Shown: positions 1-8,054 of the stretch, piece after piece
How positions within the stretch are numbered: the first letter of the stretch is position 1
How the letters are laid out: every line of letters starts with the position of its first letter
Origin: a virus
Length of the DNA: 8,054 bases
Virus genome (UHGV): UHGV-0324772
Strand: one strand, 5' to 3'
Notes under the pieces: generated by a model
Seen by the model: only the letters and a program-made list of their open reading frames with translations
Databases searched by the model: none
What the model was told of the DNA's origin: nothing
Position numbers and translations under genes: made by a program

Positions 1-156
1 CAGAGCATCAACATTTAAGACACCTGTCTTATAGACCTGAGCCTGTGTTTTTTTCGCGGTGTCGATTTGTACAGCGGAAACATAAACCGCTTTACCTACG
101 CTCGAACCATCCCATACCACCAGTGCACCTGTTGCATCTTCTGGCAATACGGCTCT
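1..156 (-). CDS. Head decoration protein gpD-like fragment (partial; runs off the window start, N-terminal side closed by an in-frame stop at 157-159)
   Basis: Minus-strand frame open from 156 to 1 translates to LPEDATGALVVWDGSSVGKAVYVSAVQIDTAKKTQAQVYKTGVLNVDAL, which aligns by eye with lambda gpD ([36 protein letters not shown]...). No ATG start; not in the ORF track because it is partial. Confidence 0.35.
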
Positions 157-286
157 TCAGGGGATTGTAGACTATGGCGGTATTCAGGATCCGGAGCTAA
201 TCCGAATGGGGCTGACTAAAGCCGAACTTGCACCGAAAAACTATATTGTGCCTGGTGATCCGGCTATTGAATATGTGCAGACACAT

Positions 287-1051
287 TCAGCACCACAGCC
301 AATACCGGCCCGCATCAATCGAATCACCAAGGTCTTTAAGAGCCGTTTCCAGTTCGGAATTAGAACCACGACGGGTATCCAGAGCCTCTTTTATCGCTCT
401 GAATGAACGGTATTTCTTCCATACATTACCGCCCATAATGATGATATTAGTGACGCCCTCACTAAATTCTGCGTAGCTCTCAATATCATCATTTGGATCA
501 AAAGTTTCTTTATCCTTACCTGACCACTCAGCACCGCCAGACTGAGTGATGATATTTTGTGGTTTAATATTCCAGTCCAGCTCATAACGTTCAATACCAT
601 CGCCCTCAATGATATTTTTCCCCGTTGTGATTGCCTGAACGGCAAGCCATTCAATACGTGCACGAATAGCTTTAGCCTGATTTACAATCGCCTGTTTAAC
701 TTTAATATTACGCGCTCCAAAAGCATTGTATTGCTCAGGTGATACACCAGCAGGGCGCACAGCTAACTTATTTGGATCAATGCTGCTTTTCGGCTTCATA
801 TAGCCTGGACGAATTGTTTTTGATTCGTACCCTTCGTCACGTGAAACTTTACTACCCACCATAGGAGAACAAAACGCTGCAATTGGGATATTTGGATCGT
901 CGATTGTATCAAGAATAATATCGCGCGATTCAAACATTACCGAGCGAGTAAAAAACAAACTGGTAAACAACGCATTTAGTTGTTTTTGTACATCTACAGC
1001 ATTAACCACCTGTACAAGCTGGGTAGGCGAATATAAATCAACCATACGCAT
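287..1051 (-). CDS. Lambda gpE-like major capsid protein, C-terminally truncated (about 255 aa versus about 341 aa in lambda)
   Basis: Track ORF 287..1219. Residues from MRMVDLYSPTQLV onward align along the length with lambda gpE as I recall it (LFFTRS/LFFRES, PGYMKPK/PGYVKPK, ITQSGGAEWS/ITQSGGTEWS, DTRRGSNSELETALKDLG near-identical). Start set at ATG 1045 or 1051, with AAGAGG 6 nt upstream of 1045; the 58 upstream codons look like a stop-less extension. ORF stops at 287-289 right after the KDLG motif, so about 90 C-terminal residues are absent. Confidence 0.8.
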   Translation of the reverse strand: MRMVDLYSPTQLVQVVNAVDVQKQLNALFTSLFFTRSVMFESRDIILDTIDDPNIPIAAFCSPMVGSKVSRDEGYESKTIRPGYMKPKSSIDPNKLAVRPAGVSPEQYNAFGARNIKVKQAIVNQAKAIRARIEWLAVQAITTGKNIIEGDGIERYELDWNIKPQNIITQSGGAEWSGKDKETFDPNDDIESYAEFSEGVTNIIIMGGNVWKKYRSFRAIKEALDTRRGSNSELETALKDLGDSIDAGRYWLWC

Positions 1052-2000: not shown

Positions 2001-2228
2001 TTCACCTGTTCACCTTTTGATATTTTCTCTTTTAATTCATAATGTTAATGGGTGAACAGTTTCACAAAAACTATTCACCAACTGTTCACCACTGTTCACC
2101 CTTGAAGCTCAATAAACAATCAAAAAGGTGAACAGTGAATAGTTTGGTGAACAGTTCATAAATAACTGTTCACCCTATAATATACTGATATAAAAGATAT
2201 TTATGACAGGGTGAACAGTGGTGAACAG
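2001..2228. repeat. P4-type type-I iteron cluster (TGTTCACC), putative cis replication region / origin bound by alpha protein
   Basis: Nine perfect octamers: TGTTCACC at 2007, 2083, 2093, 2167 and the complement GGTGAACA at 2051, 2127, 2146, 2210, 2220, plus degenerate copies (2001-2006, 2072-2079). An AT-rich stretch lies at 2176-2205. Sits immediately downstream of the alpha gene end, as crr does in P4. Confidence 0.8.
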
Positions 2229-2241
2229 TTATTCCATAAGT

Positions 2242-2686
2242 TTAATTTTTGCTATCGTCATTAGTGACCGATACACATGATGGCATCCAGTCTTCTGATT
2301 CCTCCGTCAGTGTCACGTTTGAACGCAAACCGTGCTTCGTTTTCCGTTTCATATACTCCCTGCCATATTCCGCCATTGCCCCCGGCATATCTTTACCGAA
2401 GCGCGTCAGTGTTACAGGTTTACCAAACCCATGTGCCCTCATATAAGCCAGATAGGCATGATAGAGATACCTGCGTGGGCTGAATGGCACAATTTCAGCA
2501 TTACCCACTAACAGGCCATCACACATTACCGATGCCATGAGATAGCCGCAGAAGTCCACCAGCGAATCCCCCTCTCGCTTTATCGCCAGTGCTTCTTCAG
2601 ATTTCTGCTGCTCATATAACAGGCGTCTGGCTTCGTCCTGATCAGCAAACCGTGTAAGCAGATGGCGAATCACTACCGCCAGCTCA
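2242..2686 (-). CDS. P4 alpha-type primase/helicase, C-terminal region (fragment; track ORF 2242..2673 with GTG start)
   Basis: Translation ELAVVIRHLLTRFADQDEARRLLYEQQ... continues the helicase-domain end seen on the other strand at 2976-3013. Frame is open upstream to a stop at 2707-2709. Ends at stop 2242-2244 next to the iterons. Confidence 0.65.
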
Positions 2687-2687
2687 A

Positions 2688-3015
2688 GTGGTTGGCTTTT
2701 CGCTGATTATCATGCCGGATATGACCCGCTACGCTGGTGATGGGGCAGGGATTAAGGCCATTACAGGCGGTGACAAGGTGGCAATTGACCCGAAACACAA
2801 AGCCCCCTATTCAACGCGTATTCCGGCAGTAGTGCTGGCGGTTAACAATAACGCCATGTCATTCAGTGACCGCAGCGGGGGGATCTCACGTCGTCGGGTG
2901 ATATTCAATTTTTCGGAAGTTGTACCGGAGAACGAACGCGATTCGATGCTGGCGGAAAAAATAGAAGGTGAGCTGGCGGTAGTGATTCGTCATCTGCTTA
3001 CACGGTTTGTTTTTT
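2688..3015 (+). CDS. P4 alpha-type helicase-domain fragment on the opposite strand to the rest of alpha (probable misassembly or inversion)
   Basis: Track ORF 2688..3017. ITGGDKVAIDPKHKAPYSTRIPAVVLAVNNNAMSFSDRSGGISRRRVIFNFSEVVPENERDSMLAEKIEGELAVVIRHLLTRF matches the region after Walker B in P4/D5-type helicases. Its 3' end (2976-3013) is the reverse complement of 2649-2686 with one mismatch. The stop codon is formed partly by adapter bases. Confidence 0.6.
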
Positions 3016-3073
3016 AATGATACGGCGACCACCGAGATCTACACTCTTTCCCTACACGACGCTCTTCCGATCT
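3016..3073 (+). other. Illumina TruSeq universal (P5) adapter, 58 nt, exact: sequencing/assembly artefact
   Basis: AATGATACGGCGACCACCGAGATCTACACTCTTTCCCTACACGACGCTCTTCCGATCT read directly at 3016-3073, preceded by TTTTT (3011-3015). Confidence 0.97.
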
Positions 3074-4064
3074 ACCAGCAGAGGGGGATTCGCTGGATGA
3101 ATAACTGCCAGTCGTACCGGTTCGCCAGCACCATGAATAATGCCGCCAGTACGCGATCTGCCTTGCGGTCATTCTCAGCCACCGAACGGCGCAACCACTT
3201 CCAGAAATTCGGCGCATGTGTTGCCAGCGTTTCCCCCTCTGCTGGTGGGCTGAAAGGTAATTCACTGGCAATTAACAACCAGTCGTTTTTGTTATGCTCC
3301 CGAAAATTACCAGTTCTGGTATCAAATACCCCGTTACTGAATCCAATCAGGTTACGGGCTGTATTCCCCATTACAGGCAAACTTAACTTCATGGTATCTA
3401 CCGCCGATTTAATAGCGTTCTGCGAATAGCTGATCTCCGCATCAATGAAAATCTGCGCCATAGCACGCTGTAACTCTTTATCCTGAACCGGCTCCCATAC
3501 AACGCCGTTGTAATGATGAACGGTGTCAGAGTCGGCATTGATTGCCAGTTCGCCGCCGTAATGTGCAAGGAGAACTTCACCGCGCTGGCTGGCCCCCATC
3601 TGATTCAACGCCAAAGATGAAGCACGCTCGTCATTTTTGCGCTCTGCCTTCTTCACTGGCAGTTCAATCACCAGACTTTCCCCATGCTCCGCTTCAGCTT
3701 TTAGGCCGACAAGGCGCGGAGTCCAGTCTTCAGGCTCTCGATCAACAAAGCTACGGTAACAACGTGCTTCCTTTACGCCTGCAATAGCAAGTAATGTCGC
3801 AACCTTCGTCAGACTTTTCTCTGCAATCTTTCCGGCACGATAAACACGCACATAATGACGGCCTTCATCGATAATTTGCATATCATCCAGGTTTTCCAGT
3901 TGTTCCGTACCCAGAATGACTGGTGGTGTATCATCTGCTGCAATATGCTTACCTGCCCATTCATTCCATTCTTTTGCATGGCTCCAGGCATCACTGCCAG
4001 CAAAAATGATGACTTCCGTCATTTTGTCGCGCGGTTGGTATTTTAAGTTCGGAGCACGTTTCAT
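3072..4064 (-). CDS. P4 alpha-type primase/helicase, N-terminal primase region (reading frame cut off at the adapter junction)
   Basis: Track ORF, 330 aa. Call rests on continuity with the alpha helicase and C-terminal fragments, position in the operon and the adjacent P4-type iterons; an early EVIIFAGSDAW segment is primase-like but not a confident motif match. The terminal stop (3072-3074) is created by adapter bases, so the real protein continues. GGAGG RBS 6 nt upstream; start overlaps the upstream stop (ATGA at 4061-4064). Confidence 0.75.
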   Translation of the reverse strand: MKRAPNLKYQPRDKMTEVIIFAGSDAWSHAKEWNEWAGKHIAADDTPPVILGTEQLENLDDMQIIDEGRHYVRVYRAGKIAEKSLTKVATLLAIAGVKEARCYRSFVDREPEDWTPRLVGLKAEAEHGESLVIELPVKKAERKNDERASSLALNQMGASQRGEVLLAHYGGELAINADSDTVHHYNGVVWEPVQDKELQRAMAQIFIDAEISYSQNAIKSAVDTMKLSLPVMGNTARNLIGFSNGVFDTRTGNFREHNKNDWLLIASELPFSPPAEGETLATHAPNFWKWLRRSVAENDRKADRVLAALFMVLANRYDWQLFIQRIPLCW

Positions 4065-4348
4065 TTGTTACCTCCGGCAACTAACATTGCCCGAATTTTA
4101 CGGATATAGCCTGCGGCACGCCTCTGATTATCTGTCTTGCAATTTTTTACCAGAATGAAATCTCTTTCGAACTGCTGACGCGGCATAACACATTCAAAAT
4201 CATAACCATCACGCAAATAAGAGACACGACGATCATCAACCGAAATAATCTTTACCCGATAGCCATAGCTGTCTTTGAAAATATCCCCAAGGCTGATTTT
4301 TGAATGAGTTTGACCGCTGGCAATAAAGCCAGAAAATTTATTTTTCAT
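4061..4348 (-). CDS. Hypothetical small protein (95 aa), alpha-operon member
   Basis: Track ORF; same strand; stop overlaps the alpha start codon (translational coupling). No motif recognised. Confidence 0.5.
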   Translation of the reverse strand: MKNKFSGFIASGQTHSKISLGDIFKDSYGYRVKIISVDDRRVSYLRDGYDFECVMPRQQFERDFILVKNCKTDNQRRAAGYIRKIRAMLVAGGNK

Positions 4349-4351
4349 TTT

Positions 4352-4576
4352 TTATTCTCCGGTATAGCTCTGGTCGTGTATTTTTATAGCTTCATCCAGC
4401 TCTTTGATGACAGGATCAAGTAACGTAATTAACGCTCCAGCTAAATTAGCATCCCGTTCATCGTGTTCCGCATTTGTTGTCCCATCAAGCCAGGTTGATA
4501 AGATTTCTCGCATATTTTTGCCACAAACGAGCGCGTTTTCAGCATGTGTCAGCACTTTAAAATAAAGATCATTCAT
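4352..4576 (-). CDS. Hypothetical small protein (74 aa), alpha-operon member
   Basis: Track ORF; start overlaps the upstream ORF end by 8 nt; acidic, helical-looking sequence. Confidence 0.45.
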   Translation of the reverse strand: MNDLYFKVLTHAENALVCGKNMREILSTWLDGTTNAEHDERDANLAGALITLLDPVIKELDEAIKIHDQSYTGE

Positions 4577-4934
4577 GGCACACCTCCTGACGAATACGGG
4601 CGGCGAATATCATCACGTAGCCAGTTGGGGATTGCAGCCGGGCTTCCTGTTCGCTGGCGGCCTCGATGTGTATTACGCGTGGTTGTGCGGTGCTCAGGGC
4701 GATAAAACGCCAGATGAAATTGTTTTCGCATTTCTGAATAAACAGCGTGTTTTCTTCACGCCCTTTCCAGAAAGCCGCAGTATAGCCCATCTCCTTAACC
4801 ATCTTGCGGGCATCAACCAGCGTGTCAGCGGCTACATGTACCGTAGTTGCTCCATCTGCCATGCGGTCGTGGTGTAGTGCCAGAAAGGTGTATATAAATT
4901 TAGGGTGAGTTTGGGTATGCTGTGTTCCAGCCAT
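4569..4934 (-). CDS. Hypothetical protein (121 aa), first gene of the alpha operon
   Basis: Track ORF; GAGG 8 nt upstream of ATG 4934; sits downstream of the predicted minus-strand promoter. Confidence 0.5.
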   Translation of the reverse strand: MAGTQHTQTHPKFIYTFLALHHDRMADGATTVHVAADTLVDARKMVKEMGYTAAFWKGREENTLFIQKCENNFIWRFIALSTAQPRVIHIEAASEQEARLQSPTGYVMIFAARIRQEVCHE

Positions 4935-4996
4935 AATCGTTACCTCATTTAACGGGTTGGTTAGACGCCTCGATGGTGTTCCCGCACGTCGAGGCG

Positions 4997-5076
4997 TTGC
5001 ATTTTCCTAAACACGTATGTAATGTGTCATCACACATTAACACATTACATCGGGTGTAATTGACGTGTCAACACAC
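4997..5076. promoter_or_regulatory. Divergent promoter region with repeated operator-like half-sites (ACACATTA / TGTAATGT)
   Basis: Plus strand: TTGCAT (4997-5002), 17 nt, TAATGT (5020-5025). Minus strand: TTGACA (complement of 5066-5071), 18 nt, TAATGT (complement of 5042-5047). Inverted repeat atgtaatgtgt (5017-5027) / acacattacat (5040-5050), plus acacatta (5032-5039) and gtgtaatt (5054-5061). Confidence 0.4.
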
Positions 5077-5244
5077 AAAAATCAAAGACGTGGTAATCCT
5101 CCGTTCCAGTTTCGGTTAGATCCTGAGTTGAGGGAGTTGATGGAGCAAGCACAGCAAGTAGATGGAGACGAATCTTTAGCAGCCTGGATTAAAAGGATTA
5201 TTCGCAAAGAACTACAGCAACGCGGATATGAAGTCAAAATTTAA
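5065..5244 (+). CDS. Small ribbon-helix-helix (Arc/CopG-like) putative transcriptional regulator; start uncertain (GTG 5065 or ATG 5140)
   Basis: Below the track's length cut-off. Frame open from 5041 to TAA at 5242-5244. Translation ...PPFQFRLDPELRELMEQAQQVDGDESLAAWIKRIIRKELQQRGYEVKI has a beta-strand then two helices, as in RHH proteins. Divergent from the alpha operon, convergent with the TIR-like gene. Confidence 0.4.
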   Translation: MSTHKNQRRGNPPFQFRLDPELRELMEQAQQVDGDESLAAWIKRIIRKELQQRGYEVKI

Positions 5245-5257
5245 CAGATAATATTTC

Positions 5258-5290
5258 ATATAGAGCCATTTATCTCGAATGGCTCTATAT
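5258..5290. terminator. Perfect 13-bp stem hairpin between convergent genes (putative bidirectional terminator)
   Basis: atatagagccatt (5258-5270), loop tatctcg, aatggctctatat (5278-5290); followed on plus by gattttta. Lies between the RHH stop (5244) and the TIR-like stop (5320). Confidence 0.55.
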
Positions 5291-5319
5291 CTATGCAGAT
5301 TTTTAGTTCAAAGAATTTA

Positions 5320-6195
5320 CTAAACTGCGTAACCAGTAGCTCGCAAGTCTTTAATAATGCTATATGCTACTTCTTCAATAGAAGAATTGAATTTTTTATA
5401 AATAAGACCATTCAAATCACTTGGAATCACTACATCACCTGTGTATAGACAACAAACCTTAGAACGACCTAATTTCCCTACGAAATAACCAAATTCAAAC
5501 ATTACATTTGGTCGTGCACGTAACTCCTTTTCTCTTTCATTATCAGGTAAAGAGTCTTGCGGCAATAAATAAGCGATCTCATCAGGTGTGAGAAGAATGA
5601 ATGCGAAACCAACATCACTATTTGCTTCAAATTTCTCAATCACTGTCTGGCCTACATCAGCTTGCCTATGGAGAACAATAGGTTCTAAGCCAATTTCTCT
5701 TAAAAACACCTCTAAGTTGGTTTTTGATATTTCATCTCTTCCATGAACAATGAATACTTTTTTGGTTTTTACCGCTGAACTCTGAGGTACTTCAATATTT
5801 TCTTCAACAACTTTGGAAGATATAGGAATTAACTCCAGTCGCTCCATAATCGACTCTAGTTTTCTTATCTTACTCTGGAGTTTACGCGTAGCCTCACTGA
5901 TTTTTTCTCCCAAGGAAGTCTCGTACAATGAAATAACACCAAATGCCCCACCTTCATATTCTTCTTTGAAATCATCATTTGTGAAACTACGCTTCAGTAG
6001 CTCAGCATTAAAATCACTCCATTTCCTGTAATCAGCATTAAACAGCTCCAAGTCACTATTGTTATTTATGCTTTTCTGTAGGAGTAATAATCCTTTTTGA
6101 ATTCTGTCTTGAATTTTATCTTTCATATCATCTCTTGATATGATTAGTTCACAAACAGTTTTCATTTCTACGCTATTTTTTTTTCGAGTAGCCAT
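5320..6195 (-). CDS. TIR-like (COG4271/PF10137-type) domain protein with an unassigned N-terminal domain; candidate anti-phage NADase effector
   Basis: Track ORF, 291 aa. Residues about 145-291 carry the pattern I associate with TIR-like nucleotide-binding proteins: KKVFIVHGRD, GLEPIVLHRQ, TVIEKFE, VGFAFILLTPDE, RARPNVMFEFGYFVGKLGR, IPSDLNGLIY. N-terminal about 140 aa is helical with no TM segment or known motif. Good RBS (AAGGGTG, 5 nt, ATG). Visibly AT-rich compared with flanks. Confidence 0.7.
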   Translation of the reverse strand: MATRKKNSVEMKTVCELIISRDDMKDKIQDRIQKGLLLLQKSINNNSDLELFNADYRKWSDFNAELLKRSFTNDDFKEEYEGGAFGVISLYETSLGEKISEATRKLQSKIRKLESIMERLELIPISSKVVEENIEVPQSSAVKTKKVFIVHGRDEISKTNLEVFLREIGLEPIVLHRQADVGQTVIEKFEANSDVGFAFILLTPDEIAYLLPQDSLPDNEREKELRARPNVMFEFGYFVGKLGRSKVCCLYTGDVVIPSDLNGLIYKKFNSSIEEVAYSIIKDLRATGYAV

Positions 6196-6231
6196 GCTTA
6201 CACCCTTTTATATAACAATTTACTACAACAT

Positions 6232-6459
6232 TTATGTCCGCCATTCCCCCCTAATCCATGCCTGAACTTCGGAGAGACGGTAAGCTACCGCAGTAGCGCC
6301 AATCTTGATCCGCTTAGGAAATTTTCCTTCCTTCTCCAGCTTCCAGCGTGTGCTGTTCGCAAGAGTGGTTAGCTCCCGACATTCTTTCTCACGGATCATA
6401 CGATCAATGTTAGGAATGTACTCCAGACCCTTTTTATCAACAATTGCCATTTTTTTCAT
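6232..6459 (-). CDS. alpA: AlpA/Vis-family small DNA-binding regulator or excisionase-like protein
   Basis: 75 aa; the central segment resembles AlpA-family (PF05930-type) prophage regulators; lies 1 nt downstream of the integrase stop on the same strand. Confidence 0.7.
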   Translation of the reverse strand: MKKMAIVDKKGLEYIPNIDRMIREKECRELTTLANSTRWKLEKEGKFPKRIKIGATAVAYRLSEVQAWIRGEWRT

Positions 6460-6460
6460 G

Positions 6461-7696
6461 TTAACCAGCCTTTTGTTTGAGGATTGTCACTTTTGAATCA
6501 GCACCTGCGATGCTATTGAGATATGTAGTCCAGAGTTCCAGAGCATCCAGTTTTTTAGCCATAAACTTACTCCGATTGTAAACACCTGCCACGCCAGGTA
6601 GCGCATGGCCTAACAGTTGTTCTACTACATAAAATTCAACACCGAGATCACTTAGATGAGTAGATAGCGTTCTTCTAAGGTCGTGTAGTGACCATTGTTT
6701 TTCATGGCCCAAACGTTTACCGATTTTCCCCCCAATCTTGCTTACGCTTTCTCTAATTCGCAGACTTCCCAGCACATAACCAGTATGTTTTGTCTCTTCG
6801 TGAACATCCGTTACCCACTGTCGTAGAATTTCAGGTACTGGTCTGACGATTTCAACACCAGTTTTTGAGTGATCTTTTGGTACAGTCCAAACCCAACTTT
6901 CGAGATCCCATTCGCTCCATTCTGATAATCGGGCTTCACTCATTCGACATCCAAATACTGTACAAAGCACAAACATTTTTCGCGTGTATTCAGACATTAG
7001 TTTTAAATCAGGCTCGACAAAAATTGCCTTCCAGAGCTGGCCGAGTTCGGCTTCATCCAGAACCCGATCCCGCTTACCTGCAATCTGCCCCACATCACTC
7101 ATGCGCAAATCCTTTAAAGCATCACACGTCGCGTACTGGCGTACCCGACAAAAACGAAGAGCTAATTTAGTGTCAGAAAAAACATACGCCGCCATAACTG
7201 GTGCATTACGTTTAATTCGGTCAAAACAGTCCAGCCATTCATATAGGTGAGTGTCATTTACGGGCAAATGACCGATATAGGGAAAGATATGCTTTCGAAA
7301 TCTGCCAAGCGTTACAGCATGAGTTTTACGACGCACCTTACAGTAATTTTCATACCAGTAATTTAGTGCATCCTCCACTGTGACCGGCTTTAAGCGTTCT
7401 TCAGCCTGAATCTTAATCTGGATACGCGGATCACGTTTGTCAGCCAACCAACCACGGCACTCGTCGCGCTTTTCCCTTGCCTGTTTGAGTGACATATCAG
7501 GATATTTACCCAACGTTAGCCAGACCGGAGCAGCCCGGCCACCTGCTAACCTGTAGAAGAAAACAAAGCTCACAGCCCCTTTAGTACTCACACGAATAGA
7601 AAGCCCCTTTCCATCAGCAATGGTGATCTGCTTTTCTCTGGGTTTCCCCAGATATCCTTTAAGCGCTTTGTCGCTCAGTTTGTTCTCGCCAGCCAT
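6461..7696 (-). CDS. int: Tyrosine site-specific integrase, P4-like family
   Basis: Track ORF 6461..7747; likely start at ATG 7696 (MAGENKLSDKALKGYLGKP...ADGKGLSIRV resembles the P4-type N-terminal arm-binding domain). C-terminal catalytic signatures HDLRRT and LLGH...GVYNRS (Tyr). Confidence 0.9.
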   Translation of the reverse strand: MAGENKLSDKALKGYLGKPREKQITIADGKGLSIRVSTKGAVSFVFFYRLAGGRAAPVWLTLGKYPDMSLKQAREKRDECRGWLADKRDPRIQIKIQAEERLKPVTVEDALNYWYENYCKVRRKTHAVTLGRFRKHIFPYIGHLPVNDTHLYEWLDCFDRIKRNAPVMAAYVFSDTKLALRFCRVRQYATCDALKDLRMSDVGQIAGKRDRVLDEAELGQLWKAIFVEPDLKLMSEYTRKMFVLCTVFGCRMSEARLSEWSEWDLESWVWTVPKDHSKTGVEIVRPVPEILRQWVTDVHEETKHTGYVLGSLRIRESVSKIGGKIGKRLGHEKQWSLHDLRRTLSTHLSDLGVEFYVVEQLLGHALPGVAGVYNRSKFMAKKLDALELWTTYLNSIAGADSKVTILKQKAG

Positions 7697-7828
7697 TTTT
7701 AGCCCCAAAAAGCAATACAAGCTGCAATACAGAGATGATTGCAACACACAGATAACGAGGAAAATTCAGTGAAAGCGCCAGATAAACTTATTCTTTATTA
7801 TCAAAAGATTAAGTGTAAAAACCAGCAA

Positions 7829-8054
7829 CTACACGAAAGCCTCAGAAAGCCATGCTAAGTGCTTCGGCTTGACATATCCCGGTGTAAATTCAGAGGTGGA
7901 GCCGCCACGGGAGCGGATAACCTCACCGGAAACAATCGGCGAAACGTACAGCGCCATGTTTACCAGTCCCGGAATTTGTGAGAGATAGACTTTCTCCGTG
8001 GTGAAGGGATAGCTCTCACGGAAAAAGAGACGCAGAAACAGCGGATCAAACTTA
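7829..8054 (-). pseudogene. Lambda gpE (major capsid) N-terminal fragment, truncated; start lies beyond the window end
   Basis: Minus-strand translation from the window edge, KFDPLFLRLFFRESYPFTTEKVYLSQIPGLVNMALYVSPIVSGEVIRSRGGSTSEFTPGYVKPKH, matches lambda gpE residues about 17-82 as I recall them, then runs into 9 unrelated codons and a stop at 7829-7831. Confidence 0.7.

What the first reader, a model, noticed from the sequence alone, without database searches (positions are those of the whole stretch)
2649..3015. Strand-switched alpha helicase fragment bounded by a 38-nt imperfect inverted repeat
Alpha fragments at 3074-4064 and 2242-2686 are on the minus strand, but the helicase segment at about 2700-3015 is on the plus strand. 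Positions 2976-3013 are the reverse complement of 2649-2686 with one mismatch (t versus c). The segment between Walker A and Walker B is missing. With the adjacent adapter this looks like a fold-back or repeat-induced chimeric join, possibly collapsing two near-identical alpha copies; a real inversion that inactivates alpha is the less likely alternative.
Basis: partly seen in the sequence, partly recalled or inferred. Interest (0 to 1): 0.55.

Follow-up and report, generated by a model that had tools for sequence, protein, structure and literature searches.

The report
Sequencing-adapter misassembly inside satellite primase gene
The "inverted helicase fragment" is a 410-base patch of wrongly oriented gene sequence, a complete Illumina adapter and scraps that an assembler stitched into an otherwise intact primase-helicase gene of an E. 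coli phage satellite, so it is a technical artefact and not biology.

Summary
The strand switch and the inverted repeat are real in the sequence, but the repeat is 41 nt (2646-2686 / 2969-3009), not at the right-arm coordinates given. Against an intact copy in a complete E. coli genome, the window is collinear and 100% identical at 2242-2686 and 3097-4064. In between, 408 native bases are replaced by 410 bases:
- a 323-nt block of the same gene on the wrong strand (2687-3009);
- TTTTTT (3010-3015);
- the full 58-nt Illumina TruSeq universal (P5) adapter (3016-3073);
- a 23-nt wrong-strand scrap (3074-3096).

The 41-nt repeat is not a pre-existing repeat. It arises because the flipped block overlaps the collinear part by 41 nt. 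The 42 missing codons include Walker A itself.

No complete E. coli genome spans the junction (0 of 678), and no public contig collection contains it. A T-run before P5 is a near-universal technical signature (122 of 123 adapter occurrences in IMG/VR contigs). A second wrong-strand patch sits at 142-321.

Verdict: a library or assembly artefact, about 0.93. The gene is a P4 alpha-like Pri of a helper-embedded PICI and is almost certainly intact in the real genome. Interest is low.

The parts
3097..4064 (-). Native N-terminal part of the pri (P4 alpha-like primase-helicase) gene, codons 1 to 323 (second base). Contains the D5_N domain.
   Evidence: 100% identical and collinear to L001 6337-7304. 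Pfam D5_N matches aa 163-292.
3074..3096 (+). 23-nt wrong-strand or hybrid scrap directly after the adapter. It supplies the false C-terminus 'QRIPLCW*' of the 330-aa ORF.
   Evidence: Does not match the native continuation. It equals L001 + strand 7155-7177 with AA->TT, or is 17 nt exact to the reverse complement of window 2559-2575. The junction 3096/3097 has 0 nt microhomology and is absent from genome and metagenome contig collections.
3016..3073 (+). Complete Illumina TruSeq universal (P5) adapter: AATGATACGGCGACCACCGAGATCTACACTCTTTCCCTACACGACGCTCTTCCGATCT.
   Evidence: Exact 58/58 match. The same stretch hits unrelated phage records from Enterococcus, Roseobacter, Acinetobacter and Listeria hosts and at least 120 IMG/VR contigs.
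3010..3015 (+). Untemplated T6 run. It is the remnant of the 10-T spacer of the flow-cell-bound P5 oligo, read as an A-run at the end of a read-2 adapter read-through.
   Evidence: The native sequence here would be CTGATC. A T-run precedes the P5 29-mer in 122 of 123 occurrences in IMG/VR contigs, most often 10 T or more. GenBank phage records show adapter reverse complement plus 4, 5 or 10 A. A 10-T spacer on surface primers is described in PMC11123353.
2687..3009 (+). 323-nt block of the same gene on the wrong strand (codons 365-473: Walker B region and the rest of the SF3 helicase core). Internally it keeps the native order, including the native 7712/7713 adjacency.
   Evidence: Equals L001 7431-7753 on the opposite strand to the flanks, with 1 mismatch. 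Pfam DUF5906 and PPV_E1_C match its translation, both below their curated cut-offs. The left junction 2686/2687 has 0 nt microhomology.
2969..3009 (.). Right arm of the 41-nt inverted repeat. This is the part of the flipped block that duplicates native positions 7713-7753. It carries T at 2990.
   Evidence: The T at 2990 (reference C) is a synonymous CGC->CGT change at Arg466. It is present in 12 complete genomes that are 100% identical over the block.
2646..2686 (.). Left arm of the 41-nt inverted repeat. This is ordinary native gene sequence at the end of the collinear C-terminal part.
   Evidence: The 41-mer is single copy in the intact reference.
2242..2686 (-). Native C-terminal part of pri, codon 459 (third base) to the stop. 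Contains the Pox_D5 domain.
   Evidence: 100% identical over these positions and collinear to L001 7713-8157. Pox_D5 matches. 445 + 408 + 968 = 1821 nt, the length of the intact gene.
142..321 (+). Second wrong-strand patch, in the satellite's major capsid gene. It is flanked by losses of 145 and 110 native nt and has no adapter. Same kind of artefact.
   Evidence: Equals L001 10190-10369 on the opposite strand to its flanks. The two C->A changes at 169 and 171 are found in none of 395 genomes, whose best identity is 98.9%. The junction 141/142 is spanned by 0 of 229 genomes.

Best explanation
The feature is a technical artefact of short-read sequencing and assembly, not a structure of the organism's DNA.

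In the real genome the 1821-nt pri gene is almost certainly intact. It encodes a P4 alpha-like primase-helicase of a helper-embedded PICI. In the contig, 408 native bases were replaced by a 410-base patch built from unusable reads:
- a read-2-type adapter read-through (insert end, reverse-complemented P5 adapter, then an A-run copied from the flow-cell T-spacer);
- locally derived reads placed on the wrong strand.

The 41-nt 'inverted repeat' is a by-product. The wrongly oriented 323-nt block (native 7431-7753) overlaps the collinear contig part, which stops at 7713, by 41 nt.

Shown: the adapter and T-spacer identity, the exact map to an intact gene, the absence of every novel junction elsewhere, and the absence of a natural inverted repeat.

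Inferred: the route. Either (a) strand-split chimeric library molecules (Watson and Crick segments a few hundred bp apart in one read) were threaded through a de Bruijn graph built from untrimmed reads. Or (b) a scaffolding or gap-filling step inserted locally recruited reads in the wrong orientation. I cannot separate (a) from (b) without the reads, and put them at roughly even odds.
For: 1. Exact 58/58 TruSeq universal adapter at 3016-3073, preceded by a T-run. That T-run accompanies the P5 sequence in 122 of 123 occurrences in IMG/VR contigs and in GenBank phage records. The 10-T surface-primer spacer is described in PMC11123353.
2. Window 2242-2686 and 3097-4064 are 100% identical to the intact gene of NZ_CM143912.1. 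Together with the 408 replaced bases they give exactly 1821 nt, so the flanks show no pseudogene decay.
3. The flipped block keeps the native 7712/7713 adjacency, so a simple in-place inversion is excluded.
4. The junction 2686/2687 is spanned by 0 of 678 complete E. coli genomes that carry the gene. It is absent from viral, genome and metagenome contig collections. The junction 3096/3097 is likewise absent.
5. The intact gene has no inverted repeat longer than 18 nt, and the 41-mer is single copy.
6. Two more wrong-strand pieces lie in the same 3 kb (3074-3096 and 142-321). They carry base changes never seen in natural alleles.
7. Library artefacts that join nearby Watson and Crick segments are documented (PMC6344851, PMC7531576).
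8. The window contains no repeated canonical k-mer longer than 23 nt, so it is a legal simple path in a de Bruijn graph with k of 24 or more.
Against: - No reads or assembly log are available, so the artefact is inferred from sequence alone.
- The junctions have 0-2 nt microhomology and no natural inverted repeat. This does not fit the repeat-primed fold-back model of PMC7531576.
- The T at 2990 is a natural synonymous allele rather than an obviously random error. That leaves room for a second real template in the sample.
- The near-equal length of the patch and the replaced segment (410 vs 408 nt) is unexplained under route (a).
- In IMG/VR contigs with an internal adapter, the sequence left of the T-run is not a local inverted copy. 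The local flip is therefore not a general property of adapter joins.
Confidence: 0.93

Rival explanations
1. There is a real in vivo rearrangement. The sample's genome, or one of two pri copies in it, carries a genuine inversion or inverted-duplication breakpoint (c7713|7431) that inactivates pri. The adapter is an unrelated contamination that happens to sit next to it.
For: The junction 2686/2687 contains no adapter sequence itself. The block carries a natural allele, T at 2990, which could mark a second genuine copy. About 12% more places than genomes match this segment, so second copies do occur.
Against: No reciprocal junction exists: the block runs on into native 7713-7753 and then straight into the T-spacer and adapter. 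The junction is spanned by 0 of 678 genomes. The flanks are 100% identical to an intact gene. Two other wrong-strand scraps with non-natural changes lie nearby. This reading needs two copies plus a coincidental adapter at the other end of the block.
Confidence: 0.04
2. This is a purely repeat-induced misjoin, or the collapse of two near-identical pri copies by the assembler, with no chimeric reads or mis-oriented fill involved.
For: There is a T/C difference between the two arms, and the T is a natural allele. Many E. coli genomes carry several related satellites, with a median of 2 and up to 12 places for the 2.4-kb query.
Against: Switching between two copies of a gene keeps the gene collinear, so it cannot flip an internal segment. 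No natural inverted repeat exists at the junctions. The junction sequences share no overlap (0 nt), so a k-mer graph could not join them without reads that contain the junction. The 6.9 kb of flanks are uniformly of one allele type (1 mismatch in total), whereas the T-allele genome L002 differs at about 1% of positions.
Confidence: 0.02
3. This is a programmed invertible DNA switch: site-specific inversion between inverted repeats that turns pri off.
For: A 41-nt inverted repeat brackets a 282-nt segment. A tyrosine recombinase is encoded 3.4 kb away.
Against: Intact alleles have only one copy of the 41-mer, so there is no substrate for inversion. Only one arrangement is seen across 678 genomes. 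The segment is not simply inverted: 126 nt are lost and an adapter is gained. The recombinase is the island's Arm-type integrase.
Confidence: 0.005

Closest known systems
Adapter-mediated chimeric contigs (untrimmed Illumina TruSeq universal/P5 adapter with flow-cell T-spacer inside assemblies)
   Same: Exact adapter, preceded by a T-run, with genomic sequence on both sides. The same architecture occurs in GenBank phage records (PQ462667.1, KU885989.1) and in 14 internal occurrences in IMG/VR contigs.
   Different: Here the sequence left of the T-run is a local, wrong-strand copy of the same gene, about 130-450 nt away. In the IMG/VR cases examined it is not a local copy.
Strand-split artefact reads (Haile et al. 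2019, PMC6344851) and fragmentation-enzyme dual-stranded artefacts (Gregory et al. 2020, PMC7531576)
   Same: One sequence combines nearby segments from the Watson and Crick strands. The distances are 282, 127 and about 110-325 nt.
   Different: Those artefacts are described with sequence homologies or short natural inverted repeats at the switch point. Here microhomology is 0-2 nt and no natural inverted repeat is present. Read-level support cannot be checked.
P4 gp-alpha primase-helicase / Pri of Gram-negative PICIs (the gene that is disrupted)
   Same: 51% identity to P4 alpha residues 323-771. The gene has D5_N, an SF3 helicase core with GPGGSGKS, and a Pox_D5 C-terminal domain. Nine TGTTCACC iterons lie just downstream, the same octamer as the P4 ori/crr type 1 repeats.
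   Different: 606 aa rather than 777. The N-terminal 148 aa show no similarity to the P4 alpha primase domain.
Helper-embedded PICI of the 11capE type (Mageeney et al. 2023, PMC10111431), the genomic context
   Same: int, alpA and pri are co-oriented. The island carries its own Phage_cap_E capsid gene. It is inserted in a lambda gene E homologue at codon 82, matching site E:Phage_cap_E:80.
   Different: Nothing relevant to the finding. The island carries a TIR-domain cargo gene (PADLOC candidate PDC-S35).
Invertible DNA switches (Hin/Gin/Cin, fimS type)
   Same: An inverted repeat brackets a segment found on the opposite strand.
   Different: The repeat does not exist in intact alleles, no alternative orientation is seen in other genomes, and the segment is truncated and fused to an adapter.

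Membership tests
Adapter-bearing misassembly (Illumina TruSeq universal adapter contamination) | Exact synthetic adapter sequence inside the contig | tested here: met
   58/58 match at 3016-3073. The same stretch is found in unrelated phage records and in at least 120 IMG/VR contigs.
Adapter-bearing misassembly (Illumina TruSeq universal adapter contamination) | Flow-cell spacer signature: a T-run 5' of P5 (an A-run after the adapter complement) | tested here: met
   T6 at 3010-3015 where the native sequence is CTGATC. A T-run is present in 122 of 123 adapter occurrences in IMG/VR and in GenBank examples. The spacer is described in PMC11123353.
Adapter-bearing misassembly (Illumina TruSeq universal adapter contamination) | Novel junctions absent from independent assemblies of the same locus | tested here: met
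   0 of 678 genomes span 2686/2687 and 0 of 229 span 141/142. There are 0 hits in viral, genome and metagenome contig collections.
Adapter-bearing misassembly (Illumina TruSeq universal adapter contamination) | Junctions supported only by a few adapter-containing or chimeric reads, with the native path covered normally | not testable with these tools
   No reads are available. The provenance of the window was not found.
Strand-split / dual-stranded library artefacts (PMC6344851, PMC7531576) | Segments from opposite strands within a short distance of each other | tested here: met
   Three wrong-strand pieces, each within about 450 nt of its native position.
Strand-split / dual-stranded library artefacts (PMC6344851, PMC7531576) | Short natural inverted repeat or homology at the switch point | tested here: not met
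   Microhomology is 0, 0, 0 and 2 nt at the four junctions. No natural inverted repeat links 7713 with 7431.
Invertible DNA switch | Both inverted-repeat arms present in the uninverted allele | tested here: not met
   The 41-mer is single copy in L001, and the longest inverted repeat in the intact gene is 18 nt at 78%.
Invertible DNA switch | Both orientations found among related genomes | tested here: not met
   0 of 678 genomes carry the flipped junction.
P4 alpha-type primase-helicase (the disrupted gene) | D5_N, an SF3 helicase core with Walker A/B, and a Pox_D5 C-terminal domain | tested here: met
   Met in the intact allele. In the window as assembled, Walker A is missing.
P4 alpha-type primase-helicase (the disrupted gene) | P4 alpha N-terminal primase domain | tested here: not met
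   There is no similarity to P4 alpha before query aa 149, and no Pfam primase domain in aa 1-160.
P4 alpha-type primase-helicase (the disrupted gene) | Clustered TGTTCACC iterons next to the gene | tested here: met
   9 copies at 2007-2227 against 0.23 expected. The same octamer occurs at P4 crr and ori.
Helper-embedded PICI (context) | Co-oriented int-alpA-pri island inserted in a lambdoid late gene (E, near codon 80) | tested here: met
   Window 7859-8054(-) encodes the lambda gpE N-terminus, ending ...GYVKPKH. L002 shows both halves of E around the island.

The most novel reading that the evidence does not exclude
The junction 2686/2687 reflects a real inverted-duplication or inversion breakpoint in a second pri copy, marked by the natural T allele at 2990, in the sampled strain. 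The adapter then merely truncates the view of it. That would make this a rearranged pri pseudogene in a helper-embedded PICI.
Probability: 0.04. Interest if true: 0.15.

Novelty: not a real feature. Interest (0 to 1): 0.05.

Why it matters
Its importance is practical. As assembled, the contig would be annotated with three bogus ORFs (330, 109 and 143 aa) and a "pseudogenised" primase-helicase lacking Walker A. Someone could then read it as an inactivated satellite replication gene or as an invertible switch. It also shows that this contig has at least two wrong-strand patches, so nothing in it should be trusted at junction level until it is re-assembled from trimmed reads. The same adapter-plus-T-run signature was seen inside GenBank phage records and many IMG/VR contigs, and it makes a cheap screen for this class of error.

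Tried and rejected
- Provenance. Exact-product look-ups of three chimeric ORFs found nothing. Exact searches for the junctions in viral, genome and metagenome contig collections found nothing. The source assembly and its reads could not be traced.
- Natural repeat as the cause. A search of the intact gene found only weak inverted repeats (18 nt or less, 78% complementary), none linking the breakpoints. Rejected.
- Fold-back priming or template switching. This would need microhomology at the junctions, and 0-2 nt was found. Not supported; blunt joining or an in-silico abutment fits better.
- Simple in-place inversion. Rejected because the block starts at 7431 rather than 7305 and continues through the native 7712/7713 adjacency.
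- Two-copy collapse as the sole cause. Rejected on logic, since copy switching keeps a gene collinear. It is kept only as a possible source of the T allele.
- Whether adapter joins generally carry local inverted copies. In 12 internal IMG/VR cases they do not, so this did not yield a general mechanism.
- Rfam and tRNA scans of the window gave nothing.
- A literature search for the TGTTCACC octamer returned only unrelated primer lists. The P4 record itself was used instead.

Full report
**Observation**

The window was read in full, and ORFs and repeats were listed. Gene fragments of one primase-helicase lie on the minus strand at 2242-2686 and 3097-4064. A fragment of the same gene lies on the plus strand at 2687-3009.

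The inverted repeat exists, but it is 41 nt: 2646-2686 against 2969-3009, with one mismatch (G at 2665 against T at 2990). A repeat of this quality is expected about 8e-16 times by chance in 8 kb.

Positions 3016-3073 are an exact 58/58 copy of the Illumina TruSeq universal (P5) adapter.

**Map to an intact gene**

A megablast search of complete E. coli genomes found 71 genomes at 99% identity or better whose match spans 2399 bases against 2401 in the query, but in two pieces. I fetched one of them, NZ_CM143912.1, as L001. There the gene is an uninterrupted 1821-nt, 606-aa 'DNA primase family protein'.

Pairwise BLAST and direct comparison gave this map:

| Window | L001 | Note |
|---|---|---|
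| 320-2686 | 10079-7713, complement | 1 mismatch |
| 2687-3009 | 7431-7753, opposite strand to the flanks | 1 mismatch, at 2990 |
| 3010-3015 | none | TTTTTT where the native sequence is CTGATC |
| 3016-3073 | none | adapter |
| 3074-3096 | none | 23-nt scrap that does not match the native continuation |
| 3097-7586 | 7304-2815, complement | 100% identical |

The 23-nt scrap equals L001 top strand 7155-7177 with AA->TT. Alternatively, its last 17 nt are an exact reverse complement of window 2559-2575.

So 408 native bases (7305-7712) are replaced by a 410-base patch. Of the native bases, 282 are present only on the wrong strand and 126 (7305-7430) are absent. The two collinear pieces plus the 408 bases add up to exactly 1821 nt, and both pieces are free of any difference from the intact allele.

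The 126 missing bases are codons 323-365 and include Walker A, GPGGSGKS at aa 327-334. No G....GK[ST] motif remains in any frame of the window.

**What the inverted repeat is**

In the intact gene the 41-mer is single copy. The longest inverted repeat in 7100-7900 is 18 nt at 78% complementarity, and it is unrelated to the breakpoints. The repeat is therefore not a recombination substrate.

It exists only because the wrong-strand block runs from native 7431 through 7753, while the collinear part stops at 7713. Native 7713-7753 is thus written twice, once on each strand.

The block keeps the native 7712/7713 adjacency and then runs into the T-run and adapter. This is not what an in-place inversion would produce.

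**Technical signatures**

On the minus strand the patch reads: insert end, AGATCGGAAGAGCGTCGTGTAGGGAAAGAGTGTAGATCTCGGTGGTCGCCGTATCATT, then AAAAAA. That is the form of a read-2 adapter read-through that continues into the complement of the T-spacer of the surface-bound P5 oligo.

- A 10-T spacer on such surface primers is described in PMC11123353.
- In 123 occurrences of the P5 29-mer in IMG/VR viral contigs, 122 are preceded by a T-run or run off the contig end within it. Ten or more T is the commonest length.
- GenBank phage records show the same adapter complement followed by 4, 5 or 10 A.
- The adapter stretch of the window also hit unrelated phage records from Enterococcus, Roseobacter, Acinetobacter and Listeria hosts.

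**Absence elsewhere**

- A 100-nt probe centred on 2686/2687 matched 678 complete E. coli genomes, but never over more than half its length.
- The junction is absent from the viral, genome-representative and metagenome contig collections.
- The 3096/3097 junction is absent from the genome and metagenome contig collections, and the 3009/3010 junction from the viral collection.

**The same fault elsewhere in the window**

Window 142-321 is a second wrong-strand block, L001 10190-10369, inside the satellite's major capsid gene. It is flanked by losses of 145 and 110 native bases. It carries two C->A changes (169, 171) found in none of 395 genomes, whose best identity is 98.9%. No genome spans its left junction.

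With 3074-3096, that makes three wrong-strand pieces within about 3 kb. Each lies within about 450 nt of its native place, and the junctions have 0, 0, 0 and 2 nt of microhomology.

**The T/C mismatch**

The collinear arm matches the E04-type allele. The flipped block has T where that allele has C. The change is synonymous, CGC->CGT at Arg466.

Twelve complete genomes are 100% identical to the whole 323-nt block including the T. One of them (L002) is only about 99% identical to the window's flanks: 25 mismatches in 2367 nt and 13 in 1620 nt. By contrast, the E04 type differs from the 6.9 kb of collinear flanks at a single position.

So the block may come from a second template in the sample, either a second copy or contamination. 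Alternatively, a C->T error happened to hit a polymorphic site. One site cannot decide. Either way, switching between two copies of a gene keeps it collinear and cannot create the flip.

**Mechanism**

What is shown is that the patch is made of an adapter read-through plus locally derived, wrongly oriented gene sequence, and that it is not present in any independent assembly of this locus. The route is inferred.

Route (a): strand-split chimeric library molecules were threaded through a graph built from untrimmed reads.
- Such molecules, joining nearby Watson and Crick segments, are documented (PMC6344851 and PMC7531576).
- The window has no repeated canonical k-mer longer than 23 nt, so it is a legal simple path for k of 24 or more. 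The central mismatch is what keeps the two arms distinct.

Route (b): a scaffolding or gap-filling step placed locally recruited reads on the wrong strand.
- It would explain the blunt junctions.
- It would explain why all pieces are local.
- It would explain the near-identical length of the patch and the replaced segment (410 vs 408 nt).

The lack of microhomology and of natural inverted repeats argues against the repeat-primed fold-back model. In 12 internal adapter joins in IMG/VR contigs, the sequence left of the T-run is not a local copy, so the local flip is specific to this case. I cannot separate (a) from (b) without reads.

**What the disrupted gene is**

- The intact protein has D5_N (163-292), DUF5906/SF3 helicase (326-434) and Pox_D5 (497-592) domains.
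- It is 51% identical to P4 alpha residues 323-771, and has no similarity to the P4 alpha N-terminal primase domain.
- Nine TGTTCACC octamers cluster at 2007-2227, just downstream of the gene, against 0.23 expected. The same octamer forms the annotated type 1 repeats of P4 crr and ori.

**Genomic context**

The island has int, alpA, a TIR-domain gene, pri, ssb and a Phage_cap_E capsid gene on one strand. Its int-proximal end abuts a lambda gpE N-terminal fragment ending ...GYVKPKH, at window 7859-8054 on the minus strand. In L002 both halves of gene E flank the island. This is the helper-embedded PICI configuration, site E:Phage_cap_E:80, described by Mageeney et al. 2023 (PMC10111431). It is known biology and unrelated to the artefact.

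**Verdict**

'Repeat-induced' is not supported, and 'two-copy collapse' can at most explain the single mismatch.

This is not a real feature of the genome. Confidence is about 0.93, and interest is low. The residual novel reading is a genuine breakpoint in a second pri copy, at about 0.04.

Noticed in passing
window 142-321 (with junctions 141/142 and 321/322): Second wrong-strand patch, inside the satellite's major capsid gene. The 180 nt equal L001 10190-10369 on the opposite strand. The patch is flanked by losses of 145 and 110 native nt. It has no adapter, and two C->A changes (169, 171) are seen in none of 395 E. coli genomes. It truncates the capsid ORF.
   Followed up: yes
window 3074-3096: 23-nt scrap between the adapter and the native gene. 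It is L001 top strand 7155-7177 with AA->TT, or a 17-nt exact reverse complement of window 2559-2575 preceded by ACCAGC. Its origin is not resolved.
   Followed up: partly
window 2687-3096 versus L001 7305-7712: The artefactual patch (410 nt) is almost exactly as long as the native segment it replaces (408 nt). This is either coincidence or a sign of a length-aware step such as gap filling.
   Followed up: no
window 7859-8054 (-), with int at 6461-7696 (-): The island is embedded in a lambda gene E (major capsid) homologue. The E fragment ends ...GYVKPKH at codon 82 and is followed by the island's integrase. This matches the published helper-embedded PICI site E:Phage_cap_E:80 (PMC10111431). 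In L002 (NZ_CP117020.1) both halves of E flank the island.
   Followed up: partly
window 5320-6195 (-): A 291-aa cargo protein with a CAP12/Pycsar-type TIR domain (Pfam PF10137, 1e-33). It matches the PADLOC candidate single-gene defence system PDC-S35 (7e-67). The gene sits between alpA and the regulatory region of the island.
   Followed up: partly
window 2007-2227: Nine TGTTCACC octamers on both strands directly downstream of pri (0.23 expected). The same octamer forms the annotated type 1 repeats of P4 ori and crr, so this is the likely origin of replication of the island.
   Followed up: yes
L004 (PQ462667.1 7532-7605), L005 (OR360270.1 3' end), L006 (KU885989.1 / NC_049372.1 3' end): Deposited 'complete' phage genomes contain the reverse-complemented P5 adapter followed by an A-run. 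In PQ462667.1 it lies between two 'endonuclease' CDS and is flanked by a direct duplication. In OR360270.1 it is followed by poly-G. These look like the same class of assembly contamination.
   Followed up: partly
Most occurrences are at contig ends, but 14 of 123 are internal. Nearly all are preceded by a T-run of about 10.
   Followed up: partly
L001 146-2761 versus window 7578-7693: The reference strain E04 has an IS66-family element (ISCro1) inserted in the island's integrase gene. The window lacks it and has an intact 411-aa int.
   Followed up: no
window 2990 (and 2665): The T allele in the flipped block is a natural synonymous polymorphism (Arg466 CGC/CGT). It occurs in 12 complete genomes whose islands are otherwise about 1% diverged from the window. 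This hints at a second template in the sequenced sample.
   Followed up: partly
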